The notes below the pieces were generated by a model. It did not search any database. It was not told where the DNA came from and was given only the letters and a program-made list of their open reading frames with translations. The translations under genes and the position numbers were made by a program. Below are positions 1,131 through 64,000 of a stretch of DNA of 64,000 bases, piece by piece. The stretch's first letter is position 1, and each line of letters begins with the position of its first letter. Location: positions 128,898,001 through 128,962,000 of the forward strand of contig OZ024744.1 of the NCBI GenBank assembly GCA_964016885.1. The letters run 5' to 3'. The DNA comes from Eledone cirrhosa. Its lineage: Eukaryota.

Positions 1131-1713
1131 CCTTATATAATCAAATTTTTTTAGGTTTTTCAAAAACCTTATATAATCAATTTTTTTTAGGTTTTTCGAA
1201 AAACCTTACATAATCAATTTTTTTTAGGTTTTTTCGAAAATCCTTATATAATCAATTTTTTACGTTTTTAGAAAAACCTTATATAATCAATTTTTTTTAT
1301 ACTTTTAGAAATATTTATATCTAATTTCAAATATTGATTTTTTTTAGATTTTTCGAAATACCTTATATAATCAATTTTTCTAGGTGTTTCGAAAAACATT
1401 ATATAATCAATTTTTTTTAGGTTTTTCGAAAGACCTTATATAATCAATTTTTTTTAGGTTTTTCGGAAAACCTTATATAATCAATTTTTTTTATACTTTT
1501 AGAAATATTTATATCTAATTTCAAATATTGATTTTTTTTAGATTTTTCGAAATACCTTATATAATCAATTTTTCTAGGTGTTTCGAAAAACCTTATATAA
1601 TCAATTTTTTTTAGGTTTTTCGAAAGACCTTATATAATCAATTTTTTTTAGGTTTTTCGAAAAACCTTATATAATCAATTTTTTTAGGTTTTTCGACAAC
1701 CTTATATAATCAA
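1131..1713 (+). repeat. ~37-bp AT-rich minisatellite, consensus CCTTATATAATCAATTTTTTTTAGGTTTTTCGAAAAA
   Basis: Unit starts at about 1131, 1167, 1204, 1242, 1277, 1361, 1397, 1434, 1471, 1555, 1591, 1628, 1665 and 1700. Spacing is 35-38 bp, except for two 84-bp intervals that carry a fragment of the 321-bp satellite. Confidence 0.92.
1277..1664 (+). repeat. 194-bp tandem duplication (higher-order repeat) within the 37-bp minisatellite
   Basis: Diagnostic variants (TACTTTTAGAAATATTTATATCTAATTTC insert, TAGATTTTTCGAAATACC, TTCTAGGTGTTTCG, GAAAGACC) each recur 194 bp apart: 1277/1471, 1361/1555, 1397/1591, 1434/1628. Confidence 0.9.
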
Positions 1714-4700
1714 GTTGAGTTTAAGTTAAGTTGGGATTAAGTTAAGTTGGGGTTAAGTTAAGATGGGGTTAAGTTATGTTGTGGTTAAGTTAAGTTGGGG
1801 TTAAATTAAGTTGGGGTTAAGTTAAGTTGGGGTTAAGTTAAGTTGGGGTTAAGTTAAGTTGGGGCTAAGTTAAGTTGGGGCTAAGTTAAGTTGGGGCTAA
1901 GTTAAGTTGGGGTTAAGTTAACTTTGGGTTAAGTTAAGTTGGGTTTGAGTTAAGTTGGGGTTAATTAAGTTGGGGTTAAGTTAAGTTGGGGTTAAGTTAA
2001 GTTGGGGTTAAGTTAAGTTGGGGTTAAGTTAAGTTGATGTTAAGTTAAGTTGGGGTTAATTTAAGTTGGGGTTAAGTTAAGTTGGGGCTAAGTTAAGTTG
2101 GAGCTAAGTTAAGTTGGGGCTAAGTTAAGTTGGGGTTAAGTTAAGTTGGGGTTAAGTTAAGTTGGGGTTAATTTAAATTGGGGTTAATTTAAATTTGTTG
2201 TTAAGTTAAGTTGGGGTTAATTTAAGTTGGGGTTAAGTTAAGTTGGGGTTGAGTTAAGTTGGGGTTGAGTGAAGTTGGGGTTAAGTTAAGTTGGGGTTAA
2301 GTTAAGTTGGGGTTGAGTTAAGTTGGGGTTAATTTAAGTTGGGGCTAAGTTCATTTGGGGTTCAGTTAAGTTGGGGTTAAATTAAGTTGGGGTTAAGTTA
2401 AGTTGGGGTTAAATTAAGTTGGGGTTAAGTTAAGTTGGGGTTAAGTTAAGTTGGGGTTAAGTTAATTTGGGGTTAAGTGAAGTTAGGGTTAAGTTAAGTT
2501 GGGGTTGAGTTAAGTTGGGGGTAAGTTAAGTTGGGGTTATGTTAAGTTGGGGTTACGTTAAGTTGGGTTTAAGTTAAGTTGGGGTTAAGTTAAGTTGGGG
2601 TTAAGTTAAGTTGGGGTTAATTTAAGTTGGGGTTAAGTTAAGTTGGGATTAATTTAAGTTGGGGTTAAGTTAAGTTGGGGTTAAGTTAAGTTGGGGTTAA
2701 GTTAATTTGGGGTTAAGTTAAGTTAGGGTAAAGTTAAGTTGGGGTTGAGTTAAGTTGGGGTAAGTTAAGTTGGGGTTAAGTTAAGTTGGGGTTAAGTTAA
2801 GTTGGGGTTAAGTTAAGTTAGGCTTAACTTAAGTTGGGGTTAAGTTAAGTTGGGGGTGAGTTAAGTTGGGGGTAAGTTAAGTTGGGGTTAAGTTAAGTTG
2901 GGGTTAAGTTGGGGTTAAGTTAAGTTAGGGTTAAGTTAATTTGGGGTTGAGTTAAGTTGGGGTTAAGTTAAGTGGTGGTTATGTTAAGTTGGGGTTAAGT
3001 TAAGTTGGGGTTAATTTAAATTGGGGTTAATTTAAATTTGTTGTTAAGTTAAGTTGGGGTTAATTTAAGTTGGGGTTAAGTTAAGTTGGGGTTGAGTTAA
3101 GTTGGGGTTAATTTAAGTTGGGGCTAAGTTAATTTGGGGTTAAGTTAAGTTGGGGTTAAATTAAGTTGGGGTTAAGTTAAGTTGGGGTTGAGTTAAGTTG
3201 GGGTTAATTTAAGTTGGGGCTAAGTTAATTTGGGGTTAAGTTAAGTTGGGGTTAAATTAAGTTGGGGTTAAGTTAAGTTGGGGTTAAGTTAAGTTGGGGT
3301 TAAGTTAATTTGGGGTTAAGTGAAGTTAGGGTTAAGTTAAGTTGGGGCTGAGTTAAGTTGGGGGTAAGTTAAGTTGGGGTTGAGTTAAGTTGGGGTTAAT
3401 TTAAGTTGGGGCTAAGTTAATTTGGGGTTAAGTTAAGTTGGGGTTAAATTAAGTTGGGGTTAAGTTAAGTTGGGGTTAAGTTAAGTTGGGGTTAAGTTAA
3501 TTTGGGGTTAAGTGAAGTTGGGGTTAAGTTAAGTTGGGGTTAAGTTAAGTTGTGGTTGAGTGAAGTTGGGGTTAAGTTAAGTTGGGGTTAAATTAAGTTG
3601 GTGTTAAGTTAAGTTGGGGTTGAGTTAAGTTGGGGTTAATTTAAGTTGGGGCTAAGTTAATTTGGGGTTAAGTTAAGTTGGGGTTAAATTAAGTTGGGGT
3701 TAAGTTAAGTTGGGGTTAAGTTAAGTTGGGGTTAAGTTAATTTGGGGTTAAGTGAAGTTAGGGTTAAGTTAAGTTGGGGCTGAGTTAAGTTGGGGGTAAG
3801 TTAAGTTGGGGTTATGTTAAGTTGGGGTTAAGTTAAGTTGGGGTTAAGTTAAGTTGGGGTTCAGTTAAGTTGCGGTTAAGTTAAGTTGGGGTTAAGTTAA
3901 GTTGGGGTTAAGTTAAGTTGGGGTTAATTTAAGTTGGGGTTAAGTTAAGTTGGGGTTAAGTTAATTTGTGGTTAAGTTAAGTTGGGGTTAAGTTAAGTTG
4001 GGGTTAAATTCAGTCGGGGTTAAGTTAAGTCGGGGTTAAGTTACGTTGGGGTTAAGTTAAGTTGGGGTTAAGTTAAGTTGGGGTTGAGTTAAGTTGGGGT
4101 TAAGTTAAGTTGGGGTTAAGTTAAGTTGGGGTTAAGTTAAGTTGGGGTTAAGTTAAGTTGGGGTTAATTTAAGTTGGGGTTAAGTTAAGTTGGGGTTAAT
4201 TTAAGTTGGGGTTAATTTAAGTTGGGGTTAAGTTAAGTTGGGGTTAAGTTAAGTTGGGGTAACGTTAAGTTGGGGGTAAGTTAAGTTGGGGTTAAGTTAA
4301 GTTGGGGTTAAGTTGGGGTTAAGTTAAGTTAGGGTTAACTTAAGTTGGGGTTGTGTTAAGTGGTGGTTATGTTAAGTGGTGGTTATGTTAAGTTGGGGTT
4401 AAGTTAAGTTGGGGTTAAGTTAAGTTGGGGTTAAGTTAAGTTGGGGTTAAGTTAATTAGGGTTAAGTTAAGTTGGGTTTAAGTTAAGTTGGGGTTAAGTT
4501 AATTTGTGGTTAAGTTAAGTTGGGGTTAAGTTAAGTTGGGGTTAAGTTAAGTTGGGGATAAGTTAAGTTGGGGATAAGTTAAGTTGGGGTTAATTAAGTT
4601 GGGTTTAAGTTAAGTTGGGGTTAAGTTAAGTCGGGGTTAAGTTAAGTTGGGGTTAAGTTAAGTTGGGGGTAAGATAAGTTGGGGTTAGTTAAGTTGGGGT

Positions 4701-7700: not shown

Positions 7701-8340
7701 AAGTTGGGGTTAATTTAAGTTGGGGTTAAGTTAAGTTGGGATTAATTTAAGTTGGGGTTAAGTTAAGTTGGGGTTAAGTTAAGTTGGGGTTAAATTAAGT
7801 TGGGGTTAAGTTAAGTTGGGGTTAAGTTAAGTTGGGGTTAAGTTAATTTGGGGTTAAGTTAAGTTAGGGTAAAGTTAAGTTGGGGTTGAGTTAAGTTGGG
7901 GTAAGTTAAGTTGGGGTTAAGTTAAGTTGGGGTTAAGTTAAGTTGGGGTTAAGTTAAGTTAGGCTTAACTTAAGTTGGGGTTAAGTTAAGTTGGGGGTGA
8001 GTTAAGTTGGGGGTAAGTTAAGTTGGGGTTAAGTTAAGTTGGGGTTAAGTTGGGGTTAAGTTAAGTTAGGGTTAAGTTAATTTGGGGTTGAGTTAAGTTG
8101 GGGTTAAGTTAAGTGGTGGTTATGTTAAGTTGGGGTTAAGTTAAGTTGGGGTTAATTTAAATTGGGGTTAATTTAAATTTGTTGTTAAGTTAAGTTGGGG
8201 TTAATTTAAGTTGGGGTTAAGTTAAGTTGGGGTTGAGTTAAGTTGTGGTTGAGTGAAGTTGGGGTTAAGTTAAGTTGGGGTTAAATTAAGTTGGGGTTAA
8301 GTTAAGTTTGGGTTGAGTTAAGTTGGGGTTAATTTAAGTT

Positions 8341-10690: not shown

Positions 10691-13600
10691 TTAAGTTAAG
10701 TTGGGGCTAAGTTAAGTTGGGGTTAAGTTAAGTTGGGGTTAAGTTAAGTTGGGGTTAATTTAAGTTGGGGTTAATTTAAGTTGGGGTAAAGTTAAGTTGG
10801 GGGTAAGTTAAGTTGGGGTTAAGTTAAGTTGGGGTTAAGTTGGGGTTAAGTTAAGTTAGGTTTAACTTAAGTTGGGGTTGTGTTAAGTGGTGGTTATGTT
10901 AAGTGGTGGTTATGTTAAGTTGGGGTTAAGTTAAGTTGGGGTTAAGTTAAATTGGGGTTAAGTTAAGTTGCGGTTAAGTTAAGTTGGGGTTAAGTTAAGT
11001 TGGGGTTAAGTTAATTAGGGTTAAGTTAAGTTGGGGTTAAGTTAAGTTGGGGTTAAGTTAAGTTGGGGTTAAGTTAATTTGTGGTTAAGTTAAGTTGGGG
11101 TTAAGTTAAGTTGGGGTTAAGTTAAGTTGGGGATAAGTTAAGTTGAGGATAAGTTAAGTTGGGGTTAATTAAGTTGGGTTTAAGTTAAGTTGGGGTTAAG
11201 TTAAGTTGGGGTTAAGTTAAGTTGGGGTTAAGTTAAGTTGGTTAGTTAAGTTGAGTTTAAGTTAAGTTGGGGTTAATTTAAGTTGGGGTTAAGTTAAGTT
11301 GGGGTTAAGTTAATTTGGGGTTAAGTTAAGTTGGGGTTCAGTTAAGTTGGGGTTCAGTTAAGTTGGGGTTAAGTTGGGGTAAAATTAAGTTGGGGTTAAG
11401 TTAAGTTGCGGTTAAGTTAAAATGAGGTTAAGTTAAGTTGGGGTTAAGTTAAGTTGGGGTTAAGTTAAGTTGGGGCTAAGTTAAGTTGGGGCTAAGTTAA
11501 GTTGGGGCTAAGTTAAGTTGGGATTAAGTTAACTTTGGGTTAAGTTAAGTTGGGTTTGAGTTAAGTTGGGGTTAATTAAGTTGGGGTTAAGTTAAGTTGG
11601 GGTTAAGTTAAGTTGGGGTTAAGTTAAGTTGGGGTTAAGTTAAGTTGATGTTAAGTTAAGTTGGGGTTAATTTAAGTTGGGGTTAAGTTAAGTTGGGGCT
11701 AAGTTAAGTTGGGGTTAAGTTAATTAGGGTTAAGTTAAGTTGGGGTTAAGTTAAGTTGGGGTTAAGTTAAGTTGGGGTTAAGTTAATTTGTGGTTAAGTT
11801 AAGTTGGGGTTAAGTTAAGTTGGGGTTAAGTTAAGTTGGGGATAAGTTAAGTTGAGGATAAGTTAAGTTGGGGTTAATTAAGTTGGGTTTAAGTTAAGTT
11901 GGGGTTAAGTTAAGTTGGGGTTAAGTTAAGTTGGGGTTAAGTTAAGTTGGTTAGTTAAGTTGAGTTTAAGTTAAGTTGGGGTTAATTTAAGTTGGGGTTA
12001 AGTTAAGTTGGGGTTAAGTTAATTTGGGGTTAAGTTAAGTTGGGGTTCAGTTAAGTTGGGGTTAAGTTAAGTTGGGGTTAAGTTGGGGTAAAATTAAGTT
12101 GGGGTTAAGTTAAGTTGCGGTTAAGTTAAAATGAGGTTAAGTTAAGTTGGGGTTAAGTTAAGTTGGGGTTAAGTTAAGTTGGGGCTAAGTTAAGTTGGGG
12201 CTAAGTTAAGTTGGGGCTAAGTTAAGTTGGGGTTAAGTTAACTTTGGGTTAAGTTAAGTTGGGTTTGAGTTAAGTTGGGGTTAATTAAGTTGGGGTTAAG
12301 TTAAGTTGGGGTTAAGTTAAGTTGGGGTTAAGTTAAGTTGATGTTAAGTTAAGTTGGGGTTAATTTAAGTTGGGGTTAAGTTAAGTTGGGGCTAAGTTAA
12401 GTTGGAGCTAAGTTAAGTTGGGGCTAAGTTAAGTTGGGGTTAAGTTAAGTTGGGGTTAAGTTAAGGTGGGGTTAAGTTAAGTTGGGGTCAACTTAAGTTG
12501 GGGTTAAGTTAAGTTGGGGTTAACTTAAGTTGGGGTTAAGTTAAGTTGGGGTTAAGTTAAGTTGGGGTTACGTTAAGTTGGGGGTAAGTTAAGTTGGTGG
12601 TAAGTTAAGTTGGGGGTAAGTTAAGATGGGGTTAAGTTAGGGTTAAGTTAAGTTAGGGTTAAGTTAATTTGGGGTTGAGTTAAGTTGGGGTTAAGTTAAG
12701 TGGTGGTTATGTTAAGTTGGGGTTAAGTTAAGTTGGGGTTAATTTAAATTGGGGTTAATTTAAATTTGTTGTTAAGTTAAGTTGGGGTTAATTTAAGTTG
12801 GGGTTAAGTTAAGTTGGGGTTGAGTTAAGTTGGGGTTGAGTGAAGTTGGGGTTAAGTTAAGTTGGGGTTAAGTTAAGTTGGGGTTGAGTTAAGTTGGGGT
12901 TAATTTAAGTTGGGGCTAAGTTCATTTGGGGTTCAGTTAAGTTGGGGTTAAATTAAGTTGGGGTTAAGTTAAGTTGGGGTTAAATTAAGTTGGGGTTAAG
13001 TTAAGTTGGGGTTAAGTTAAGTTGGGGTTAAGTTAATTTGGGGTTAAGTGAAGTTAGGGTTAAGTTAAGTTGGGGTTGAGTTAAGTTGGGGGTAAGTTAA
13101 GTTGGGGTTATGTTAAGTTGGGGTTACGTTAAGTTGGGTTTAAGTTAAGTTGGGGTTAAGTTAAGTTGGGGTTAAGTTAAGTTGGGGTTAATTTAAGTTG
13201 GGGTTAAGTTAAGTTGGGATTAATTTAAGTTGGGGTTAAGTTAAGTTGGGGTTAAGTTAAGTTGGGGTTAAATTAAGTTGGGGTTAAGTTAAGTTGGGGT
13301 TAAGTTAAGTTGGGGTTAAGTTAATTTGGGGTTAAGTTAAGTTAGGGTAAAGTTAAGTTGGGGTTGAGTTAAGTTGGGGTAAGTTAAGTTGGGGTTAAGT
13401 TAAGTTGGGGTTAAGTTAAGTTGGGGTTAAGTTAAGTTAGGCTTAACTTAAGTTGGGGTTAAGTTAAGTTGGGGGTGAGTTAAGTTGGGGGTAAGTTAAG
13501 TTGGGGTTAAGTTAAGTTGGGGTTAAGTTGGGGTTAAGTTAAGTTAGGGTTAAGTTAATTTGGGGTTGAGTTAAGTTGGGGTTAAGTTAAGTGGTGGTTA

Positions 13601-13749
13601 TGTTAAGTTGGGGTTAAGTTAAGTTGGGGTTAATTTAAATTGGGGTTAATTTAAATTTGTTGTTAAGTTAAGTTGGGGTTAATTTAAGTTGGGGTTAAGT
13701 TAAGTTGGGGTTGAGTTAAGTTGGGGTTAATTTAAGTTGGGGCTAAGTT

Positions 13750-22700: not shown

Positions 22701-24200
22701 AAGTTAAGTTGGGGTTAAGTTAAGTTGGGGTTAAGTTAAGTTGGGGATAAGTTAAGTTGAGGATAAGTTAAGTTGGGGTTAATTAAGTTGGGTTTAAGTT
22801 AAGTTGGGGTTAAGTTAAGTTGGGGTTAAGTTAAGTTGGGGTTAAGTTAAGTTGGTTAGTTAAGTTGAGTTTAAGTTAAGTTGGGGTTAATTTAAGTTGG
22901 GGTTAAGTTAAGTTGGGGTTAAGTTAATTTGGGGTTAAGTTAAGTTGGGGTTCAGTTAAGTTGGGGTTCAGTTAAGTTGGGGTTAAGTTGGGGTAAAATT
23001 AAGTTGGGGTTAAGTTAAGTTGCGGTTAAGTTAAAATGAGGTTAAGTTAAGTTGGGGTTAAGTTAAGTTGGGGATAAGTTAAGTTGGGGCTAAGTTAAGT
23101 TGGGGCTAAGTTAAGTTGGGGCTAAGTTAAGTTGGGATTAAGTTAACTTTGGGTTAAGTTAAGTTGGGTTTGAGTTAAGTTGGGGTTAATTAAGTTGGGG
23201 TTAAGTTAAGTTGGGGTTAAGTTAAGTTGGGGTTAAGTTAAGTTGGGGTTAAGTTAAGTTGATGTTAAGTTAAGTTGGGGTTAATTTAAGTTGGGGTTAA
23301 GTTAAGTTGGGGCTAAGTTAAGTTGGGGTTAAGTTAATTAGGGTTAAGTTAAGTTGGGGTTAAGTTAATTTGGGGTTAAGTTAAGTTGGGGTTAAGTTAA
23401 TTTGTGGTTAAGTTAAGTTGGGGTTAAGTTAAGTTGGGGTTAAGTTAAGTTGGGGATAAGTTAAGTTGAGGATAAGTTAAGTTGATGTTAAGTTAAGTTG
23501 GGGTTAATTTAAGTTGGGGTTAAGTTAAGTTGGGGCTAAGTTAAGTTGGAGCTAAGTTAAGTTGGGGCTAAGTTAAGTTGGGGTTAAGTTAAGTTGGGGT
23601 TAAGTTAAGGTGGGGTTAAGTTAAGTTGGGGTCAACTTAAGTTGGGGTTAAGTTAAGTTGGGGTTAACTTAAGTTGGGGTTAAGTTAAGTTGGGGTTAAG
23701 TTAAGTTGGGGTTAAGTTAAGTTGGGGTTACGTTAAGTTGGGGGTAAGTTAAGTTGGTGGTAAGTTAAGTTGGGGGTAAGTTAAGATGGGGTTAAGTTAG
23801 GGTTAAGTTAAGTTAGGGTTAAGTTAATTTGGGGTTGAGTTAAGTTGGGGTTAAGTTAAGTGGTGGTTATGTTAAGTTGGGGTTAAGTTAAGTTGGGGTT
23901 AATTTAAATTGGGGTTAATTTAAATTTGTTGTTAAGTTAAGTTGGGGTTAATTTAAGTTGGGGTTAAGTTAAGTTGGGGTTGAGTTAAGTTGGGGTTGAG
24001 TGAAGTTGGGGTTAAGTTAAGTTGGGGTTAAGTTAAGTTGGGGTTGAGTTAAGTTGGGGTTAATTTAAGTTGGGGCTAAGTTCATTTGGGGTTCAGTTAA
24101 GTTGGGGTTAAATTAAGTTGGGGTTAAGTTAAGTTGGGGTTAAATTAAGTTGGGGTTAAGTTAAGTTGGGGTTAAGTTAAGTTGGGGTTAAGTTAATTTG
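13750..24200 (+). repeat. ~5.6-kb tandem duplication within the 16-mer array (boundaries approximate)
   Basis: The private variant GGGGTAAAATAAAG occurs at ~15444 and ~21064. Other pairs: GGCGTTGAG ~16457/~22077, CAACTT 15864/21484 and 17997/23633, AAATTCAGTC 14097/19701. Offsets are 5,604-5,636. Confidence 0.8.
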
Positions 24201-24389
24201 GGGTTAAGTGAAGTTAGGGTTAAGTTAAGTTGGGGCTGAGTTAAGTTGGGGGTAAGTTAAGTTGGGGTTATGTTAAGTTGGGGTTAAGTTAAGTTGGGGT
24301 TAAGTTAAGTTGGGGTTCAGTTAAGTTGCGGTTAAGTTAAGTTGGGGTTAAGTTAAGTTGGGGTTAAGTTAAGTTGGGGTTAAGTTAAG

Positions 24390-51300: not shown

Positions 51301-54300
51301 GTTAAGTTGGTTAGTTAAGTTGAGTTTAAGTTAAGTTGGGGTTAATTTAAGTTGGGGTTAAGTTAAGTTGGGGTTAAGTTAATTTGGGGTTAAGTTAAGT
51401 TGGGGTTCAGTTAAGTTGGGGTTAAGTTAAGTTGGGGTTAAGTTGGGGTAAAATTAAGTTGGGGTTAAGTTAAGTTGCGGTTAAGTTAAAATGAGGTTAA
51501 GTTAAGTTGGGGTTGAGTTAAGTTGGGGTTAAGTTAAGTTGGGGCTAAGTTAAGTTGGGGCTAAGTTAAGTTGGGGCTAAGTTAAGTTGGGGTTAAGTTA
51601 ACTTTGGGTTAAGTTAAGTTGGGTTTGAGTTAAGTTGGGGTTAATTAAGTTGGGGTTAAGTTAAGTTGGGGTTAAGTTAAGTTGGGGTTAAGTTAAGTTG
51701 GGGTTAAGTTAAGTTGATGTTAAGTTAAGTTGGGGTTAATTTAAGTTGGGGTTAAGTTAAGTTGGGGCTAAGTTAAGTTGGAGCTAAGTTAAGTTGGGTT
51801 TGAGTTAAGTTGGGGTTAATTAAGTTGGGGTTAAGTTAAGTTGGGGTTAAGTTAAGTTGGGGTTAAGTTAAGTTGGGGTTAAGTTAAGTTGATGTTAAGT
51901 TAAGTTGGGGTTAATTTAAGTTGGGGTTAAGTTAAGTTGGGGCTAAGTTAAGTTGGAGCTAAGTTAAGTTGGGGCTAAGTTAAGTTGGGGTTAAGTTAAG
52001 TTGGGGTTAAGTTAAGGTGGGGTTAAGTTAAGTTGGGGTCAACTTAAGTTGGGGTTAAGTTAAGTTGGGGTTAACTTAAGTTGGGGTTAAGTTAAGTTGG
52101 GGTTAAGTTAAGTTGGGGTTAAGTTGGGGTTACGTTAAGTTGGGGGTAAGTTAAGTTGGTGGTAAGTTAAGTTGGGGGTAAGTTAAGATGGGGTTAAGTT
52201 AGGGTTAAGTTAAGTTAGGGTTAAGTTAAGTTGGGGGTAAGATAAGTTGGGGTTAGTTAAGTTGGGGTTAAGTAAAGTTGGGGTTCAGTTAAGTTGGGGT
52301 TAAGTTAAGTTAGGCTTAACTTAAGTTGGGGTTAAGTTAAGTTGGGGGTGAGTTAAGTTGGGGGTAAGTTAAGTTGGGGTTAAGTTAAGTTGGGGTTAAG
52401 TTGGGGTTAAGTTAATTTAGGGTTAAGTTAAGTTGGGGTTGAGTTAAGTTGGGGTTAAGTTAAGTGGTGGTTATGTTAAGTTGGGGTTAAGTTAAGTTGG
52501 GGTTAATTTAAATTGGGGTTAATTTAACTTTGTGGTTAAGTTAATTTGTGGTTAATTTAAGTTGGGGTTAAGTTAAGTTGGGGTTAATTTAATTTGTGGT
52601 TAAGTTAAGTTGGGGTTAAGTTAAGTTGGCGTTGAGTTAAGCTGGGGTTAAGTTAAGTTGGGGTTAAAATAAGTTGGGGTTAAGTTAAGTTGGGGTTGGG
52701 TTAAGTTGGGGTTGAGTTAATTTGGGGTTAAGTTAAGTTGGGGTTAACTTAAGTTGGTTTTAATTTAAGTTGGGGTTAAGTTAAGTTGGGGTTATAATTA
52801 AGTTGGGGTTAAGTTAAGTTGGGGGTAAGATAAGTTGGGGTTAGTTAAGTTGCGGTTAAGTTAAGTTGGGGTTAAGTTAAGTTGGGGTTAAGTTAAGTTG
52901 GGGTTAAGTTAAGTTGGGGTTAATTTAAGTTGGGGTTAATTTAAGTTGGGGTAAAGTTAAGTTGGGGGTAAGTTAAGTTGGGGTTAAGTTAAGTTGGGGT
53001 TAAGTTGGGGTTAAGTTAAGTTAGGGTTAACTTAAGTTGGGGTTGTGTTAAGTGGTGGTTATGTTAAGTGGTGGTTATGTTAAGTTGGGGTTAAGTTAAG
53101 TTGGGGTTAAGTTAAATTGGGGTTAAGTTAAGTTGCGGTTAAGTTAAGTTGGGGTTAAGTTAAGTTGGGGTTAAGTTAATTAGGGTTAAGTTAAGTTGGG
53201 GTTAAGTTAAGTTGGGGTTAAGTTAAGTTGGGGTTAAGTTAATTTGTGGTTAAGTTAAGTTGGGGTTAAGTTAAGTTGGGGTTAAGTTAAGTTGGGGATA
53301 AGTTAAGTTGAGGATAAGTTAAGTTGGGGTTAATTAAGTTGGGTTTAAGTTAAGTTGGGGTTAAGTTAAGTTGGAGTTAAGTTAAGTTGGGGTTAAGTTA
53401 AGTTGGTTAGTTAAGTTGAGTTTAAGTTAAGTTGGGGTTAATTTAAGTTGGGGTTAAGTTAAGTTGGGGTTAAGTTAATTTGGGGTTAAGTTAAGTTGGG
53501 GTTCAGTTAAGTTGGGGTTCAGTTAAGTTGGGGTTAAGTTGGGGTAAAATTAAGTTGGGGTTAAGTTAAGTTGCGGTTAAGTTAAAATGAGGTTAAGTTA
53601 AGTTGGGGTTAAGTTAAGTTGGGGTTAAGTTAAGTTGGGGCTAAGTTAAGTTGGGGCTAAGTTAAGTTGGGGCTAAGTTAAGTTGGGATTAAGTTAACTT
53701 TGGGTTAAGTTAAGTTGGGTTTGAGTTAAGTTGGGGTTAATTAAGTTGGGGTTAAGTTAAGTTGGGGTTAAGTTAAGTTGGGGTTAAGTTAAGTTGGGGT
53801 TAAGTTAAGTTGATGTTAAGTTAAGTTGGGGTTAATTTAAGTTGGGGTTAAGTTAAGTTGGGGCTAAGTTAAGTTGGGGTTAAGTTAATTAGGGTTAAGT
53901 TAAGTTGGGGTTAAGTTAATTTGTGGTTAAGTTAAGTTGGGGTTAAGTTAAGTTGGGGTTAAGTTAAGTTGGGGATAAGTTAAGTTGAGGATAAGTTAAG
54001 TTGATGTTAAGTTAAGTTGGGGTTAATTTAAGTTGGGGTTAAGTTAAGTTGGGGCTAAGTTAAGTTGGAGCTAAGTTAAGTTGGGGCTAAGTTAAGTTGG
54101 GGTTAAGTTAAGTTGGGGTTAAGTTAAGGTGGGGTTAAGTTAAGTTGGGGTCAACTTAAGTTGGGGTTAAGTTAAGTTGGGGTTAACTTAAGTTGGGGTT
54201 ACGTTAAGTTGGGGGTAAGTTAAGTTGGTGGTAAGTTAAGTTGGGGGTAAGTTAAGATGGGGTTAAGTTAGGGTTAAGTTAAGTTAGGGTTAAGTTAATT

Positions 54301-57300
54301 TGGGGTTGAGTTAAGTTGGGGTTAAGTTAAGTGGTGGTTATGTTAAGTTGGGGTTAAGTTAAGTTGGGGTTAATTTAAATTGGGGTTAATTTAAATTTGT
54401 TGTTAAGTTAAGTTGGGGTTAATTTAAGTTGGGGTTAAGTTAAGTTGGGGTTGAGTTAAGTTGGGGTTGAGTGAAGTTGGGGTTAAGTTAAGTTGGGGTT
54501 AAGTTAAGTTGGGGTTGAGTTAAGTTGGGGTTAATTTAAGTTGGGGCTAAGTTCATTTGGGGTTCAGTTAAGTTGGGGTTAAATTAAGTTGGGGTTAAGT
54601 TAAGTTGGGGTTAAATTAAGTTGGGGTTAAGTTAAGTTGGGGTTAAGTTAAGTTGGGGTTAAGTTAATTTGGGGTTAAGTGAAGTTAGGGTTAAGTTAAG
54701 TTGGGGTTGAGTTAAGTTGGGGGTAAGTTAAGTTGGGGTTATGTTAAGTTGGGGTTACGTTAAGTTGGGTTTAAGTTAAGTTGGGGTTAAGTTAAGTTGG
54801 GGTTAAGTTAAGTTGGGGTTAATTTAAGTTGGGGTTAAGTTAAGTTGGGATTAATATAAGTTGGGGTTAAGTTAAGTTGGGGTTAAGTTAAGTTGGGGTT
54901 AAATTAAGTTGGGGTTAAGTTAAGTTGGGGTTAAGTTAAGTTGGGGTTAAGTTAATTTGGGGTTAAGTTAAGTTAGGGTAAAGTTAAGTTGGGGTTGAGT
55001 TAAGTTGGGGTAAGTTAAGTTGGGGTTAAGTTAAGTTGGGGTTAAGTTAAGTTGGGGTTAAGTTAAGTTAGGCTTAACTTAAGTTGGGGTTAAGTTAAGT
55101 TGGGGGTGAGTTAAGTTGGGGGTAAGTTAAGTTGGGGTTAAGTTAAGTTGGGGTTAAGTTGGGGTTAAGTTAAGTTAGGGTTAAGTTAATTTGGGGTTGA
55201 GTTAAGTTGGGGTTAAGTTAAGTGGTGGTTATGTTAAGTTGGGGTTAAGTTAAGTTGGGGTTAATTTAAATTGGGGTTAATTTAAATTTGTTGTTAAGTT
55301 AAGTTGGGGTTAATTTAAGTTGGGGTTAAGTTAAGTTGGGGTTGAGTTAAGTTGTGGTTGAGTGAAGTTGGGGTTAAGTTAAGTTGGGGTTAAATTAAGT
55401 TGGGGTTAAGTTAAGTTTGGGTTGAGTTAAGTTGGGGTTAATTTAAGTTGGGGCTAAGTTAATTTGGGGTTAAGTTAAGTTGGGGTTAAATTAAGTTGGG
55501 GTTAAGTTAAGTTGGGGTTAAGTTAAGTTGGGGTTAAGTTAATTTGGGGTTAAGTGAAGTTAGGGTTAAGTTAAGTTGGGGCTGAGTTAAGTTGGGGGTA
55601 AGTTAAGTTGGGGTTATGTTAAGTTGGGGTTAAGTTAAGTTGGGGTTAAGTTAAGTTGGGGTTCAGTTAAGTTGCGGTTAAGTTAAGTTGGGGTTAAGTT
55701 AAGTTGGGGTTAAGTTAAGTTGGGGTTAATTTAAGTTGGGGTTAAGTTAAGTTGGGGTTAAGTTAATTTGTGGTTAAGTTAAGTTGGGGTTAAGTTAAGT
55801 TGGGGTTAAATTCAGTCGGGGTTAAGTTAAGTCGGGGTTAAGTTACGTTGGGGTTAAGTTAAGTTGGGGTTAAGTTAAGTTGGGGTTGAGTTAAGTTGGG
55901 GTTAAGTTAAGTTGGGGTTAAGTTAAGTTGGGGTTAAGTTAAGTTGGGGTTAAGTTAAGTTGGGGTTAATTTAAGTTGGGGTTAAGTTAAGTTGGGGTTA
56001 ATTTAAGTTGGGGTTAAGTTAAGTTGGGGTTAAGTTAAGTTGGGGTAACGTTAAGTTGGGGGTAAGTTAAGTTGGGGTTAAGTTAAGTTGGGGTTAAGTT
56101 GGGGTTAAGTTAAGTTAGGGTTAACTTAAGTTGGGGTTGTGTTAAGTGGTGGTTATGTTAAGTGGTGGTTATGTTAAGTTGGGGTTAAGTTAAGTTGGGG
56201 TTAAGTTAAGTTGGGGTTAAGTTAAGTTGGGGTTAAGTTAATTTGGGTTAAGTTAAGTTGGGTTTAAGTTAAGTTGGGGTTAAGTTAATTTGTGGTTAAG
56301 TTAAGTTGGGGTTAAGTTAAGTTGGGGTTAAGTTAAGTTGGGGATAAGTTAAGTTGGGGATAAGTTAAGTTGGGGTTAATTAAGTTGGGTTTAAGTTAAG
56401 TTGGGGTTAAGTTAAGTCGGGGTTAAGTTAAGTTGGGGTTAAGTTAAGTTGGGGGTAAGATAAGTTGGGGTTAGTTAAGTTGCGGTTAAGTTAAGTTGGG
56501 GCTAAGTTAAGTTGGGGTTAAGTTAAGTTGGGGTTAAGTTAAGTTGGGGTTAATTTAAGTTGGGGTTAATTTAAGTTGGGGTAAAGTTAAGTTGGGGGTA
56601 AGTTAAGTTGGGGTTAAGTTAAGTTGGGGTTAAGTTGGGGTTAAGTTAAGTTAGGTTTAACTTAAGTTGGGGTTGTGTTAAGTGGTGGTTATGTTAAGTG
56701 GTGGTTATGTTAAGTTGGGGTTAAGTTAAGTTGGGGTTAAGTTAAATTGGGGTTAAGTTAAGTTGCGGTTAAGTTAAGTTGGGGTTAAGTTAAGTTGGGG
56801 TTAAGTTAATTAGGGTTAAGTTAAGTTGGGGTTAAGTTAAGTTGGGGTTAAGTTAAGTTGGGGTTAAGTTAATTTGTGGTTAAGTTAAGTTGGGGTTAAG
56901 TTAAGTTGGGGTTAAGTTAAGTTGGGGATAAGTTAAGTTGAGGATAAGTTAAGTTGGGGTTAATTAAGTTGGGTTTAAGTTAAGTTGGGGTTAAGTTAAG
57001 TTGGGGTTAAGTTAAGTTGGGGTTAAGTTAAGTTGGTTAGTTAAGTTGAGTTTAAGTTAAGTTGGGGTTAATTTAAGTTGGGGTTAAGTTAAGTTGGGGT
57101 TAAGTTAATTTGGGGTTAAGTTAAGTTGGGGTTCAGTTAAGTTGGGGTTCAGTTAAGTTGGGGTTAAGTTGGGGTAAAATTAAGTTGGGGTTAAGTTAAG
57201 TTGCGGTTAAGTTAAAATGAGGTTAAGTTAAGTTGGGGTTAAGTTAAGTTGGGGTTAAGTTAAGTTGGGGCTAAGTTAAGTTGGGGCTAAGTTAAGTTGG

Positions 57301-60300
57301 GGCTAAGTTAAGTTGGGATTAAGTTAACTTTGGGTTAAGTTAAGTTGGGTTTGAGTTAAGTTGGGGTTAAATAAGTTGGGGTTAAGTTAAGTTAGGGTTA
57401 AGTTAAGTTGGGGTTAAGTTAAGTTGGGGTTAAGTTAAGTTGATGTTAAGTTAAGTTGGGGTTAATTTAAGTTGGGGTTAAGTTAAGTTGGGGCTAAGTT
57501 AAGTTGGGGTTAAGTTAATTAGGGTTAAGTTAAGTTGGGGTTAAGTTAAGTTGGGGTTAAGTTAAGTTGGGGTTAAGTTAATTTGTGGTTAAGTTAAGTT
57601 GGGGTTAAGTTAAGTTGGGGTTAAGTTAAGTTGGGGATAAGTTAAGTTGAGGATAAGTTAAGTTGGGGTTAATTAAGTTGGGTTTAAGTTAAGTTGGGGT
57701 TAAGTTAAGTTGGGGTTAAGTTAAGTTGGGGTTAAGTTAAGTTGGTTAGTTAAGTTGAGTTTAAGTTAAGTTGGGGTTAATTTAAGTTGGGGTTAAGTTA
57801 AGTTGGGGTTAAGTTAATTTGGGGTTAAGTTAAGTTGGGGTTCAGTTAAGTTGGGGTTAAGTTAAGTTGGGGTTAAGTTGGGGTAAAATTAAGTTGGGGT
57901 TAAGTTAAGTTGCGGTTAAGTTAAAATGAGGTTAAGTTAAGTTGGGGTTAAGTTAAGTTGGGGTTAAGTTAAGTTGGGGCTAAGTTAAGTTGGGGCTAAG
58001 TTAAGTTGGGGCTAAGTTAAGTTGGGGTTAAGTTAACTTTGGGTTAAGTTAAGTTGGGTTTGAGTTAAGTTGGGGTTAATTAAGTTGGGGTTAAGTTAAG
58101 TTGGGGTTAAGTTAAGTTGGGGTTAAGTTAAGTTGATGTTAAGTTAAGTTGGGGTTAATTTAAGTTGGGGTTAAGTTAAGTTGGGGCTAAGTTAAGTTGG
58201 AGCTAAGTTAAGTTGGGGCTAAGTTAAGTTGGGGTTAAGTTAAGTTGGGGTTAAGTTAAGGTGGGGTTAAGTTAAGTTGGGGTCAACTTAAGTTGGGGTT
58301 AAGTTAAGTTGGGGTTAACTTAAGTTGGGGTTAAGTTAAGTTGGGGTTAAGTTAAGTTGGGGTTACGTTAAGTTGGGGGTAAGTTAAGTTGGTGGTAAGT
58401 TAAGTTGGGGGTAAGTTAAGATGGGGTTAAGTTAGGGTTAAGTTAAGTTAGGGTTAAGTTAATTTGGGGTTGAGTTAAGTTGGGGTTAAGTTAAGTGGTG
58501 GTTATGTTAAGTTGGGGTTAAGTTAAGTTGGGGTTAATTTAAATTGGGGTTAATTTAAATTTGTTGTTAAGTTAAGTTGGGGTTAATTTAAGTTGGGGTT
58601 AAGTTAAGTTGGGGTTGAGTTAAGTTGGGGTTGAGTGAAGTTGGGGTTAAGTTAAGTTGGGGTTAAGTTAAGTTGGGGTTGAGTTAAGTTGGGGTTAATT
58701 TAAGTTGGGGCTAAGTTCATTTGGGGTTCAGTTAAGTTGGGGTTAAATTAAGTTGGGGTTAAGTTAAGTTGGGGTTAAATTAAGTTGGGGTTAAGTTAAG
58801 TTGGGGTTAAGTTAAGTTGGGGTTAAGTTAATTTGGGGTTAAGTGAAGTTAGGGTTAAGTTAAGTTGGGGTTGAGTTAAGTTGGGGGTAAGTTAAGTTGG
58901 GGTTATGTTAAGTTGGGGTTACGTTAAGTTGGGTTTAAGTTAAGTTGGGGTTAAGTTAAGTTGGGGTTAAGTTAAGTTGGGGTTAATTTAAGTTGGGGTT
59001 AAGTTAAGTTGGGATTAATTTAAGTTGGGGTTAAGTTAAGTTGGGGTTAAGTTAAGTTGGGGTTAAATTAAGTTGGGGTTAAGTTAAGTTGGGGTTAAGT
59101 TAAGTTGGGGTTAAGTTAATTTGGGGTTAAGTTAAGTTAGGGTAAAGTTAAGTTGGGGTTGAGTTAAGTTGGGGTAAGTTAAGTTGGGGTTAAGTTAAGT
59201 TGGGGTTAAGTTAAGTTGGGGTTAAGTTAAGTTAGGCTTAACTTAAGTTGGGGTTAAGTTAAGTTGGGGGTGAGTTAAGTTGGGGGTAAGTTAAGTTGGG
59301 GTTAAGTTAAGTTGGGGTTAAGTTGGGGTTAAGTTAAGTTAGGGTTAAGTTAATTTGGGGTTGAGTTAAGTTGGGGTTAAGTTAAGTGGTGGTTATGTTA
59401 AGTTGGGGTTAAGTTAAGTTGGGGTTAATTTAAATTGGGGTTAATTTAAATTTGTTGTTAAGTTAAGTTGGGGTTAATTTAAGTTGGGGTTAAGTTAAGT
59501 TGGGGTTGAGTTAAGTTGTGGTTGAGTGAAGTTGGGGTTAAGTTAAGTTGGGGTTAAATTAAGTTGGGGTTAAGTTAAGTTGGGGTTGAGTTAAGTTGGG
59601 GTTAATTTAAGTTGGGGCTAAGTTAATTTGGGGTTAAGTTAAGTTGGGGTTAAATTAAGTTGGGGTTAAGTTAAGTTGGGGTTAAGTTAAGTTGGGGTTA
59701 AGTTAATTTGGGGTTAAGTGAAGTTAGGGTTAAGTTAAGTTGGGGCTGAGTTAAGTTGGGGGTAAGTTAAGTTGGGGTTATGTTAAGTTGGGGTTAAGTT
59801 AAGTTGGGGTTAAGTTAAGTTGGGGTTCAGTTAAGTTGCCGTTAAGTTAAGTTGGGGTTAAGTTAAGTTGGGGTTAAGTTAAGTTGGGGTTAATTTAAGT
59901 TGGGGTTAAGTTAAGTTGGGGTTAAGTTAATTTGTGGTTAAGTTAAGTTGGGGTTAAGTTAAGTTGGGGTTAAATTCAGTCGGGGTTAAGTTAAGTCGGG
60001 GTTAAGTTAAGTTGGGGTTAAGTTAAGTTGGGGTTAAGTTAAGTTGGGGTTGAGTTAAGTTGGGGTTAAGTTAAGTTGGGGTTAAGTTAAGTTGGGGTTA
60101 AGTTAAGTTGGGGTTAAGTTAAGTTGGGGTTAAGTTAAGTTGGGGTTAATTTAAGTTGGGGTTAATTTAAGTTGGGGTTAAGTTAAGTTGGGGTAACGTT
60201 AAGTTGGGGTTAAGTTAAGTTGGGGTTAAGTTAAGTTGGGGTTAAGTTGGGGTTAAGTTAAGTTAGGGTTAACTTAAGTTGGGGTTGTGTTAAGTGGTGG

Positions 60301-63300
60301 TTATGTTAAGTGGTGGTTATGTTAAGTTGGGGTTAAGTTAAGTTGGGGTTAAGTTAAGTTGGGGTTAAGTTAAGTTGGGGTTAAGTTAATTAGGGTTAAG
60401 TTAAGTTGGGTTTAAGTTAAGTTGGGGTTAAGTTAATTTGTGGTTAAGTTAAGTTGGGGTTAAGTTAAGTTGGGGTTAAGTTAAGTTGGGGATAAGTTAA
60501 GTTGGGGATAAGTTAAGTTGGGGTTAATTAAGTTGGGTTTAAGTTAAGTTGGGGTTAAGTTAAGTCGGGGTTAAGTTAAGTTGGGGTTAAGTTAAGTTGG
60601 GGGTAAGATAAGTTGGGGTTAGTTAAGTTGCGGTTAAGTTAAGTTGGGGTTAAGTTAAGTTGGGGTTAAGTTAAGTTGGGGTTAAGTTAAGTTGGGGTTA
60701 ATTTAAGTTGGGGTTAATTTAAGTTGGGGTTAAGTTAAGTTTTGGGGGTAAGTTAAGTTGGGGTTAAGTTAAGTTGGGGTTAAGTTGGGGTTAAGTTAAG
60801 TTAGGGTTAACTTAAGTTGGGGTTGTGTTAAGTGGTGGTTATGTTAAGTGGTGGTTATGTTAAGTTGGGGTTAAGTTAAGTTGGGTTAAGTTAAATTGGG
60901 TTAAGTTAAGTTGCGGTTAAGTTAAGTTGGGGGTTAAGTTAAGTTGGGGTTAAGTTAATTAGGGTTAAGTTAAATTGGGGTTAAGTTAAGTTGGGGTTTA
61001 AGTTAAGTTGGGGTTAAGTTAATTTGTGGTTAAGTTAAGTTGGGGTTAAGTTAAGTTGGGGTTAAGTTAAGTTGGGGATAAGTTAAGTTGAGGATAAGTT
61101 AAGTTGGGGTTAATTAAGTTGGGTTTAAGTTAAGTTGGGGTTAAGTTAAGTTGGGGTTAAGTTAAGTTGGGTTAAGTTAAGTTGGTTAGTTAAGTTGAGT
61201 TTAGTTAAGTTGGGGTTAATTTAAGTTGGGGTTAAGTTAAGTTGGGGTTAAGTTAATTTGGGGTTAAGTTAAGTTGGGTTCAGTTAAGTTGGGGTTAAGT
61301 TAAGTTGGGGTTAAGTTGGGGTAAAATTAAGTTGGGGTTAAGCTAAGTTGCGGTTAAGTTAAAATGAGGTTAAGTTAAGTTGGGGTTAAGTTAAGTTGGG
61401 GTTAAGTAAGTTGGGGCTAAAGTTAAGTTGGGGCTAAGTTAAGTTGGGGCTAAGTTAAGTTGGATTAAGTTAACTTTGGGTTAAGTTAAGTTGGGTTTGA
61501 GTTAAGTTGGGGTTATTTAGTTGGGGTTAAGTTAAGTTGGGGTTAAGTTAAGTTGGGGTTAAGTTAAGTTGGGGTTAAGTTAAGTTGATGTTAAGTTAAG
61601 TTGGGTTAATTTAAGTTGGGGTTAAGTTAAGTTGGGGCTAAGTTAAGTTGGGGTTAAGTTAATTAGGGTTAAGTTAAGTTGGGGTTAAGTTAAGTTGGGG
61701 TTAAGTTAAGTTGGGGTTAAGTTAATTTGTGGTTAAGTTAAGTTGGGTTAAGTTAAGTTGGGGTTAAGTTAAGTTGGGGATAAGTTAAGTTTAGGATAAG
61801 TTAAGTTGGGGTTAATTAAGTTGGGTTTAAGTTAAGTTGGGGTTAAGTTAAGTTGGGGTTAAGTTAAGTTGGGGTTAAGTTAAGTTGGTTAGTTAAGTTG
61901 AGTTTAAGTTAAGTTGGGGTTAAGTTAAGTTGGGGCTAAGTTAAGTTGGGGCTAAGTTAAGTTGGGGCTAAGTTAAGTTGGGGTTAAGTTAACTTTGGGT
62001 TAAGTTAAGTTGGGTTTGAGTTAAGTTGGGGTTAATTAAGTTGGGGTTAAGTTAAGTTGGGGTTAAGTTAAGTTGGGTTAAGTTAAGTTGATGTTAAGTT
62101 AAGTTGGGGTTAATTTAAGTTGGGGTTAAGTTAAGTTGGGGCTAAGTTAAGTTGGAGCTAAGTTAAGTTGGGGCTAAGTTAAGTTGGGGTTAAGTTAAGT
62201 TGGGGTTAAGTTAAGGTGGGGTTAAGTTAAGTTGGGGTCAACTTAAGTTGGGGTTAAGTTAAGTTGGGGTTAACTTAAGTTGGGGTTAAGTTAAGTTGGG
62301 GTTAAGTTAAGTTGGGGTTACGTTAAGTTGGGGGTAAGTTAAGTTGGTGGTAAGTTAAGTTGGGGGTAAGTTAAGATGGGGTTAAGTTAGGGTTAAGTTA
62401 AGTTAGGGTTAAGTTAATTTGGGGTTGAGTTAAGTTGGGGTTAAGTTAAGTGGTGGTTATGTTAAGTTGGGGTTAAGTTAAGTTGGGGTTAATTTAAATT
62501 GGGGTTAATTTAAATTTGTTGTTAAGTTAAGTTGGGGTTAATTTAAGTTGGGGTTAAGTTAAGTTGGGGTTGAGTTAAGTTGGGGTTGAGTGAAGTTGGG
62601 GTTAAGTTAAGTTGGGGTTAAGTTAAGTTGGGGTTGAGTTAAGTTGGGGTTAATTTAAGTTGGGGCTAAGTTCATTTGGGGTTCAGTTAAGTTGGGGTTA
62701 AATTAAGTTGGGGTTAAGTTAAGTTGGGGTTAAATTAAGTTGGGGTTAAGTTAAGTTGGGGTTAAGTTAAGTTGGGGTTAAGTTAATTTGGGGTTAAGTG
62801 AAGTTAGGGTTAAGTTAAGTTGGGGTTGAGTTAAGTTGGGGGTAAGTTAAGTTGGGGTTATGTTAAGTTGGGGTTACGTTAAGTTGGGTTTAAGTTAAGT
62901 TGGGGTTAAGTTAAGTTGGGGTTAAGTTAAGTTGGGGTTAATTTAAGTTGGGGTTAAGTTAAGTTGGGATTAATTTAAGTTGGGGTTAAGTTAAGTTGGG
63001 GTTAAGTTAAGTTGGGGTTAAATTAAGTTGGGGTTAAGTTAAGTTGGGGTTAAGTTAAGTTGGGGTTAAGTTAATTTGGGGTTAAGTTAAGTTAGGGTAA
63101 AGTTAAGTTGGGGTTGAGTTAAGTTGGGGTAAGTTAAGTTGGGGTTAAGTTAAGTTGGGGTTAAGTTAAGTTGGGGTTAAGTTAAGTTAGGCTTAACTTA
63201 AGTTGGGGTTAAGTTAAGTTGGGGGTGAGTTAAGTTGGGGGTAAGTTAAGTTGGGGTTAAGTTAAGTTGGGGTTAAGTTGGGGTTAAGTTAAGTTAGGGT

Positions 63301-64000
63301 TAAGTTAATTTGGGGTTGAGTTAAGTTGGGGTTAAGTTAAGTGGTGGTTATGTTAAGTTGGGGTTAAGTTAAGTTGGGGTTAATTTAAATTGGGGTTAAT
63401 TTAAATTTGTTGTTAAGTTAAGTTGGGGTTAATTTAAGTTGGGGTTAAGTTAAGTTGGGGTTGAGTTAAGTTGTGGTTGAGTGAAGTTGGGGTTAAGTTA
63501 AGTTGGGGTTAAATTAAGTTGGGGTTAAGTTAAGTTGGGGTTGAGTTAAGTTGGGGTTAATTTAAGTTGGGGCTAAGTTAATTTGGGGTTAAGTTAAGTT
63601 GGGGTTAAATTAAGTTGGGGTTAAGTTAAGTTGGGGTTAAGTTAAGTTGGGGTTAAGTTAATTTGGGGTTAAGTGAAGTTAGGGTTAAGTTAAGTTGGGG
63701 CTGAGTTAAGTTGGGGGTAAGTTAAGTTGGGGTTATGTTAAGTTGGGGTTAAGTTAAGTTGGGGTTAAGTTAAGTTGGGGTTCAGTTAAGTTGCCGTTAA
63801 GTTAAGTTGGGGTTAAGTTAAGTTGGGGTTAAGTTAAGTTGGGGTTAATTTAAGTTGGGGTTAAGTTAAGTTGGGGTTAAGTTAATTTGTGGTTAAGTTA
63901 AGTTGGGGTTAAGTTAAGTTTGGGTTAAATTCAGTCGGGGTTAAGTTAAGTCGGGGTTAAGTTACGTTGGGGTTAAGTTAAGTTGGGGTTAAGTTAAGTT
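24390..64000 (+). repeat. ~10.0-10.8-kb super-repeat (about 4 copies) built from ~4.1-kb higher-order units
   Basis: TTAGGTTTAACTT occurs at 25625, 36128, 46228, 56651. GTTTAGGATA occurs at 30437, 41271, 51211, 61789. AGTTTGGGTTGAG occurs at ~24388, ~34891, ~45023, ~55414. Confidence 0.75.

What the first reader, a model, noticed from the sequence alone, without database searches (positions are those of the whole stretch)
1712..64000. Kilobase-scale ordered variants imply recombination-based (telomerase-independent) expansion of a telomere-like array
Seen: rare variant units recur in the same order across the whole array. CAACTT occurs at 6995, 12489, 15864, 17997, 21484, 23633, 27210, 31091, 33661, 37761, 41909, 47861, 52040, 54152, 58284, 62239. 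AAATTCAGTC occurs at 4006, 8699, 10013, 14097, 19701, 24782, 35285, 39449, 43549, 45417, 49468, 55808, 59972, 63927. The commonest spacing is ~4.1 kb (about 256-260 monomers). Known: telomerase copies a short RNA template and gives homogeneous or randomly variant repeats, while telomerase-free ends exist (Drosophila HeT-A/TART/TAHRE, Chironomus complex repeats, yeast survivors and ALT). Inference: this DNA was copied from DNA in multi-kb blocks by unequal exchange, break-induced replication or rolling circle. If it is terminal, it would be a natural ALT-like system acting on a short, telomerase-style repeat, which is the most promising novel system in this window.
Basis: partly seen in the sequence, partly recalled or inferred. 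Interest (0 to 1): 0.85.

Follow-up and report, generated by a model that had tools for sequence, protein, structure and literature searches.

The report
Internal 8-megabase satellite, not a telomere
This is part of a roughly 8.4-million-base block of a 16-letter repeat that lies inside a chromosome of a likely octopus relative, whose assembled chromosome tips carry ordinary TTAGGG telomeres; its recurring kilobase patterns are real and were likely made by recombination-driven copying, as in other ordinary satellite DNA.

Summary
In detail: both markers sit at the stated positions, and 3,057 of 3,906 variant-rich 12-monomer words recur (none in 100 shuffles). The telomere/ALT reading fails. 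The window lies 7.5 Mb from the end of a 136.5-Mb contig. The array spans about 126.97-135.35 Mb and joins other DNA directly at both ends, with 1.15 Mb beyond it. It holds inverted blocks and AT-rich spacers and gets no purer toward the tip. Ten pure units in a row occur once in the genome. Of 37 contig ends sampled, 7 carry correctly oriented TTAGGG telomeres and none the 16-mer. The variant string is local: shared 64-mers fall from 91% next door to 6% or less at 1 Mb and 0-1% on two other chromosomes. The 4.1-kb unit is the commonest period, not a regular one (11 of 28 spacings). TERT 3' exons are present; its catalytic exons were not found, so TERT integrity is open. Verdict: an ordinary G-rich heterochromatic satellite with higher-order repeats, likely built by local homology-directed duplication. 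Whether it is centromeric is untested.

The parts
1..1711 (.). Distal half of a 3.4-kb AT-rich spacer (includes a 37-bp tandem repeat at 1130-1713). It interrupts the array; it is not the array's flank.
   Evidence: TRF; 16-mer array lies upstream as well; spacer start at C28:128,896,288
1697..1730 (+). Spacer-to-array junction, found 34 times (33 plus, 1 minus), all on C28 between 128.56 and 129.60 Mb
1712..64000 (+). 16-bp G-rich satellite, consensus TTAAGTTAAGTTGGGG, 3,933 monomers, 123 types; part of an array of about 8.38 Mb (C28:126.967-135.348 Mb)
33661..41908 (+). Two adjacent full-length higher-order units (4,100 and 4,148 bp), 99.6% identical at aligned positions
54152..62238 (+). 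Two further adjacent higher-order units (4,132 and 3,955 bp), 99.6% identical at aligned positions
15864..17996 (+). Short 2.1-kb variant unit with an alternative module; also at 21484-23632, 52040-54151 and, lengthened to 2.57 kb, 31091-33660
11600..13723 (+). Longest exact repeat in the window (2,124 bp), identical to 57395-59518, 45.8 kb away
60730..61513 (+). Cluster of 10 of the window's 41 singleton monomers; local mutation or lower consensus quality

Best explanation
The window is part of an internal 16-bp satellite array of about 8.4 Mb with higher-order repeats, likely non-coding heterochromatin that grew by homology-directed copying between nearby repeats and likely plays no part in telomere maintenance. 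Shown: the internal position; blocks 99.5-99.9% identical; nested periods (about 0.7 and 0.9 kb inside 4.1 kb, with 6-7 kb tandem duplications and 10-45 kb repeats); length differences mostly in whole monomers; similarity that fades with distance; a different period in each region sampled; inverted patches; co-amplified AT-rich spacers; an old, diverged 32-bp relative at the distal edge. Inferred: point mutations arise in single monomers; a break or stalled fork (the G-rich strand is predicted to form G-quadruplexes) is repaired on an out-of-register neighbour by unequal sister exchange or break-induced replication with template switching; this duplicates or deletes kilobase blocks in register and fixes the ordered variant strings locally. 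Inferred with less confidence: the block is pericentromeric or subterminal heterochromatin, and the monomer descends from degenerate TTAGGG.
For: Position: the window is C28:128,898,001-128,962,000 of 136,499,333. Both array ends are gap-free junctions. 15 of 15 spot probes distal to 135.40 Mb lack the 16-mer. Same monomer at mid-C2, mid-C3 and C18 4.8 and 10.15 Mb. Mechanism: 90 of 104 non-zero offsets between collinear exact matches are multiples of 16. An exact 6,957-bp tandem duplication lies at 129.069 Mb and four alternating 6,130/6,132-bp units at 129.43-129.46 Mb differ by 0-6 substitutions. Shared informative 64-mers: 0.91 adjacent, 0.54 at 150 kb, 0.24 at 470 kb, 0.056 or less at 1 Mb and beyond, 0.01 on C3, 0 on C2. 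Each other sample has its own dominant period. The same signature (monomer-preserving kilobase indels, homogenised blocks, consistent with BIR) is reported for Arabidopsis centromeres (10.1101/2025.06.02.657473, abstract and Discussion read).
Against: The 8.38 Mb were sampled, not read whole, so internal scaffold gaps or misjoins are possible. Neither end of C28 has an assembled telomere, so the true tip is unseen. The G-rich strand mostly points toward the near end, as a telomere would. The whole-monomer offsets are partly forced by the 16-bp periodicity, and the pairs counted are not independent. Sequence alone cannot separate unequal exchange from BIR. The monomer was seen on only four contigs among the listed hits (first 100 of 20,878; first 100 of 141), so it is not shown to be a genome-wide centromere repeat. 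TTAGGG ancestry is weak: edit distance 5, reached by 8 of 1,500 random 16-mers but 178 of 1,500 shuffles of the same letters; one junction pattern gave 0 matches.
Confidence: 0.9

Rival explanations
1. Compatible refinement: the array is the functional centromere of C28, with the kinetochore on its youngest higher-order repeats.
For: Multi-megabase, locally homogenised array with an old diverged relative at one edge. 172- and 196-bp satellites lie 0.6-1.0 Mb proximal. Related arrays sit near the middle of two of the four giant chromosomes.
Against: Seen on four contigs only. The 196-bp satellite is listed only on C2 and C18 in the first 100 of 929 hits, besides C28. Telomere-like mosaic arrays in Arabidopsis exclude CENH3 (10.64898/2026.05.10.723265, parts 1-2 of 4 read). 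Three karyotyped octopods are mostly metacentric (PMC5646656, abstract).
Confidence: 0.22
2. Compatible refinement: the array is a subterminal heterochromatic cap like the ape pCht caps, and the mid-chromosome copies on C2 and C3 are relics of end-to-end fusions.
For: Short monomer, megabase size, repeated spacers (34 junctions), 1.15 Mb from a contig end. The same zinc-finger-repeat junction occurs on C18 at 4.80 Mb. A degenerate TTAGGG array lies at mid-C1.
Against: 0 of 37 sampled contig ends carry the 16-mer. No near-identical array blocks between chromosomes: the C18 and C28 junction copies differ at 117 positions in the first 1.5 kb of array. Fusion points were not mapped by synteny.
Confidence: 0.3
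3. One reading: a terminal array that maintains the chromosome end by recombination in place of telomerase.
For: G-rich strand mostly oriented toward the near end; block copying is real; C28's tip is unassembled; TERT catalytic exons were not found.
Against: Direct junction to 1.15 Mb of other DNA; inverted blocks; 7 of 37 ends are 85-100% pure, correctly oriented TTAGGG and 0 of 37 are 16-mer; 28,472 matches to 15 pure TTAGGG units against 1 match to 10 pure 16-mers; TERT 3' exons without stops on C27.
Confidence: 0.02
4. The higher-order pattern is an assembly artefact (false duplication in a repeat).
For: Some tandem copies are exact over 6-7 kb; 10 singletons cluster at 60.7-61.5 kb; reads were not examined.
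Against: Copies differ by 5-19 substitutions and many whole-monomer indels per 4 kb, and lineage-specific variants recur at distant places. An assembler could misorder or duplicate units but not invent this graded divergence.
Confidence: 0.05

Closest known systems
Short-monomer megabase satellites such as human HSATII/HSATIII, and alpha-satellite higher-order arrays (PMC9859433, passages read)
   Same: Megabase arrays on a subset of chromosomes; higher-order units; diverged layers at the edge; turnover ascribed to unequal crossover and gene conversion.
   Different: 16-bp monomer; irregular mosaic of 2-7 kb units instead of one fixed unit; several inversions, which that review calls rare in alpha HORs; kinetochore link untested.
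African ape subterminal caps, 32-bp pCht/StSat with spacers (PMC12758386, abstract and passages read)
   Same: Short monomer, multi-megabase block near a chromosome end, higher-order blocks, repeated spacers, some interstitial copies.
   Different: Spacers are 1.4-3.4 kb AT-rich repeats, not 30-kb segmental duplications; at least 1.15 Mb from the tip; not found at 37 sampled ends; no near-identical blocks between the chromosomes sampled.
Arabidopsis interstitial telomeric repeat domains, CenTel mosaics (10.64898/2026.05.10.723265, parts 1-2 of 4 read)
   Same: Telomere-like internal arrays with HOR blocks and G-quadruplex potential. The C2 copy is a 520-bp mosaic of 16-mer islands and a non-telomeric satellite, close to CenTel's 530-bp design.
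   Different: The monomer is not the species' telomere repeat (5 edits from TTAGGG runs); the array is about 17 times longer than ITR-1R; origin from a centromere repeat not shown.
Telomerase-independent ends: ALT, yeast survivors, Chironomus complex repeats, Drosophila HeT-A/TART (recalled, no call)
   Same: DNA-templated copying, probably BIR-type chemistry.
   Different: Those are terminal and replace telomerase; this array is internal and the genome has TTAGGG tips.

Membership tests
Satellite DNA with higher-order repeats | Long head-to-tail array of a short monomer | tested here: met
   3,934 copies in the window; array limits about 8.38 Mb apart, interior sampled only
Satellite DNA with higher-order repeats | Multi-monomer units far more alike than monomers are | tested here: met
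   Five 4-kb units 99.5-99.9% identical against 89% between neighbouring monomers
Satellite DNA with higher-order repeats | Local, array-specific homogenisation | tested here: met
   64-mer sharing decays with distance; region-specific periods
Satellite DNA with higher-order repeats | Heterochromatic state | not testable with these tools
   No chromatin or banding data
Telomere or ALT-maintained end | Array reaches the chromosome end | tested here: not met
   Gap-free junction at 135.348 Mb, 1.15 Mb of other DNA beyond
Telomere or ALT-maintained end | Same repeat at other chromosome ends | tested here: not met
   0 of 37 contig ends; 7 of 37 are TTAGGG
Telomere or ALT-maintained end | Uniform G-strand polarity toward the tip | tested here: not met
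   Minus-strand blocks at 132.0, 133.0, 135.0 and 135.348 Mb
Telomerase-made tract | Homogeneous distal repeats | tested here: not met
   Consensus fraction 0.38-0.41 in the last 45 kb against 0.39-0.44 in the window; one 10-unit pure run in the genome
Telomere or ALT-maintained end | Telomerase absent or inactive | tested here: inconclusive
   TERT 3' exons found; RNA-binding and RT exons not found with these queries, searches of low power on split exons
Telomere or ALT-maintained end | C-circles or t-circles | not testable with these tools
   Bench assay
Functional centromere | CENP-A binding or primary constriction | not testable with these tools
   No ChIP or cytology
Functional centromere | One array per chromosome | tested here: inconclusive
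   Seen on C2, C3, C18, C28; listings are cut at 100 hits; 0 of 6 spot probes at mid-C4
Interstitial telomeric sequence | Made of, or derived from, the species' telomere repeat | tested here: inconclusive
   Edit distance 5; 8 of 1,500 random, 178 of 1,500 same-letter shuffles; no direct junction for one pattern
Ape-type subterminal cap | Present at many chromosome ends with recent exchange between them | tested here: not met
   0 of 37 ends; 64-mer sharing with C2 and C3 is 0-1%. Only the last 0.6-3 kb of each end were read, so caps further in could be missed.

The most novel reading that the evidence does not exclude
The 8.4-Mb array is the working centromere of C28 (perhaps the octopod Z chromosome), built from a telomere-derived 16-mer, and the same family marks the fusion points of the giant chromosomes C2 and C3. 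That would give a sequence-defined cephalopod centromere and a case of telomere repeats turned centromere.
Probability: 0.15. Interest if true: 0.55.

Novelty: new member of a known kind. Interest (0 to 1): 0.2.

Why it matters
As a mechanism it is ordinary: satellites with higher-order repeats are known in primates and plants. Its modest value is as a resource. No description of this repeat turned up in the literature searches (motif search; cephalopod satellite and centromere searches; listings only), and supplements were not read. A chromosome-restricted 8-Mb array is a ready FISH and CENP-A target for locating octopod centromeres and fusion points. It does not offer a natural ALT system.

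Tried and rejected
The 16-mer as the species' telomere motif: rejected. Window 1-1711 as a subtelomere: rejected, it is a recurring spacer. A single rolling-circle event for the window: disfavoured, since at most 2 successive units share a length in 30 intervals; short circles cannot be excluded for the four 6.13-kb units. Variant string shared between chromosomes: rejected for the C2 and C3 samples; C18 was compared only at the junction. Full TERT: PF12009 gave nothing and rang in none of the 14 control genomes; a word-seeded homologue search found no candidate; searches with relatives found only 3' exons or nothing; local tblastn of 40 kb upstream of one copy and 50 kb upstream of the other two found no TERT catalytic exon, only weak LINE-type RT matches. 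Direct 16-mer-to-TTAGGG junction: 0 matches for one pattern. Universal centromere repeat: not shown. Earlier scan findings: none returned.
Full report
Observation. The array splits into 3,933 monomers of 123 types, 40.3% of them the consensus TTAAGTTAAGTTGGGG. Of 3,906 12-monomer words with at least four variants, 3,057 recur; none recur in 100 order shuffles and at most 0.4% in 100 Markov simulations. Exact repeats of at least 500 bp cover 82% of the array; the longest is 2,124 bp. Five units of about 4 kb are 99.5-99.9% identical at aligned positions. The period is irregular: 11 of 28 marker spacings are 3.95-4.2 kb, a 2.1-kb variant unit with an alternative module recurs, and the 4.1-kb unit itself holds older duplications about 0.7 and 0.9 kb apart.

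Position. The window is G000:C28:128,898,001-128,962,000 and C28 is 136,499,333 bases long, so the window is 7.5 Mb from the contig end. The array continues on both sides. It starts at about 126,967,450, joined directly to a decayed zinc-finger-type repeat, and ends at about 135,348,075 after a 300-bp inverted patch; neither junction has an N gap. That is about 8.38 Mb, of which I read samples, not the whole. Beyond it come 23.6 kb of an old 32-bp relative (73% matches), then other DNA; 15 of 15 probes from 135.40 Mb to the contig end lack the 16-mer. Minus-strand blocks occur at 132.0, 133.0 and 135.0 Mb. Window 1-1711 is not a subtelomere but half of a 3.4-kb AT-rich spacer whose junction recurs 34 times between 128.56 and 129.60 Mb. 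The same monomer lies at mid-C2 (209.2-209.76 of 416 Mb), mid-C3 (184.7-185.4 of 379 Mb) and C18 (4.8 and 10.15 of 44 Mb).

The real telomeres. Of 37 contig ends sampled (21 starts, two of them small contigs, and 16 ends), 7 are 85-100% pure TTAGGG in the correct orientation and none holds the 16-mer. Fifteen pure TTAGGG units match 28,472 times; ten pure 16-mers match once, inside the array. The consensus fraction in the last 45 kb of the array is 0.38-0.41, the same as in the window. TTAGGG is the only experimentally determined cephalopod telomere motif according to a passage in PMC13218726. C28's own ends show no telomere, so its tip is unassembled and 1.15 Mb is a minimum distance.

Telomerase and organism. 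A TERT C-terminal exon passes the PF21399 cut-off at three places on C27, matches human TERT (5ugw, E 0.0056), and has its best relatives in Octopus vulgaris (66%) and Argonauta (56%). The genome is therefore likely an octopod's. Downstream exons follow in order. The RNA-binding and catalytic exons were not found; these searches are weak on short exons, and the two octopod proteins retrieved are fragments too. An intact TERT is thus unproven, but pure TTAGGG tips argue that telomerase works.

How it works. Shown: offsets between collinear exact matches are whole monomers in 90 of 104 non-zero cases (pairs not independent, and periodicity favours this). Recent tandem duplications exist: 6,957 bp exact at 129.069 Mb and four alternating 6,130/6,132-bp spacer-plus-array units that differ by 0-6 substitutions. 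Shared informative 64-mers fall from 0.91 next to the window to 0.54 at 150 kb, 0.24 at 470 kb, 0.056 or less at 1 Mb and beyond, 0.01 on C3 and 0 on C2. Each other region has its own period, as does the interstitial TTAGGG array on C1. Inferred: mutations mark single monomers, and out-of-register homology-directed repair (unequal sister exchange, or break-induced replication with template switching) duplicates and deletes kilobase blocks locally. The 536 four-G-tract motifs in the window could promote fork stalling; that is untested. A single rolling circle is disfavoured because at most two successive units share a length in 30 intervals. Mutation-accumulation work on Arabidopsis centromeres reports the same signature (10.1101/2025.06.02.657473; abstract and Discussion).

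Comparison. It works like a short-monomer heterochromatic satellite with higher-order repeats (PMC9859433, passages) and meets the three sequence features I could test. It resembles ape subterminal caps in monomer size, spacers and position (PMC12758386, abstract and passages) but was not found at the sampled ends. The C2 copy, a 520-bp mosaic of 16-mer islands and a satellite also present at C28 126.1-126.4 Mb, resembles Arabidopsis CenTel arrays, which exclude CENH3 (10.64898/2026.05.10.723265, parts 1-2 of 4). It fails the telomere and ALT tests of position, polarity, distal purity and sharing between ends. Descent from TTAGGG is plausible but weak: edit distance 5, reached by 8 of 1,500 random 16-mers and 178 of 1,500 shuffles of its own letters, with no direct junction for the one pattern tried. 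Centromere identity is open: the repeat was seen on four contigs only, with listings cut at 100 hits, and three karyotyped octopods with 2n=60 are mostly metacentric (PMC5646656, abstract), which weakens a simple centric-fusion story.

Verdict. Real higher-order structure, correct inference of DNA-templated block copying, wrong setting. This is a new member of a known kind; interest 0.2. No description of the repeat appeared in the search listings; no supplements were read, and genome notes outside the library may mention it. The earlier-findings look-ups returned nothing. ALT, yeast survivors, Chironomus and Drosophila systems are cited from recall.

Noticed in passing
G000:C27:13,140,648; 14,254,631; 14,728,979 (L060-L062); C10:54,765,041 (L130): TERT 3' exons occur in three near-identical copies on C27 and a last-exon copy on C10, while no catalytic exon was found within 40-50 kb upstream or by genome search. 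Partial duplicates, very long introns or an assembly gap.
   Followed up: partly
G000:C1:217.89-218.09 Mb (L099): Degenerate interstitial TTAGGG array (56% pure in a 10-kb sample, with kilobase internal repeats) at the middle of the largest chromosome; possible fusion relic.
   Followed up: partly
G000:C1-C4 and C28: Four giant contigs (379-443 Mb) against 135 Mb or less for the other numbered contigs before C28; C28 (136 Mb) is listed after the 22-Mb C27, as sex chromosomes often are. Neither fusion nor Z identity was tested.
   Followed up: no
G000:C2:209.2-209.76 Mb (L097, L015): 520-bp mosaic satellite: about 200 bp of 16-mer variants plus about 290 bp of a satellite related to one at C28 126.1-126.4 Mb; CenTel-like design.
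   Followed up: partly
G000:C28:126,967,445 and C18:4,801,883 (L118, L123): The same zinc-finger-repeat-to-array junction on two chromosomes; flanks differ at 16 aligned positions in 3 kb (plus gaps), the first 1.5 kb of array at 117. An old interchromosomal duplication whose arrays have since diverged.
   Followed up: partly
G000:C28:135,348,076-135,371,669: 23.6-kb diverged 32-bp satellite built from similar G-run and TAAG-type elements, in opposite orientation, at the distal edge; possible older layer.
   Followed up: partly
G000:C28:126.1-126.4 Mb (L084, L086, L087); C18:6.73-6.82 Mb; C2:243.8-244.7 Mb: 196-bp satellite family arranged in long inverted (palindromic) units; 929 exact matches to one 50-mer.
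   Followed up: partly
G000:C28:131,995,001-132,005,000 (L102): Short inverted patches of 200-350 bp recur inside the plus-strand array, so an inversion was itself amplified.
   Followed up: no
window 60730-61513: 10 of 41 singleton monomers cluster here; possible low-quality consensus or a mutation shower.
   Followed up: no
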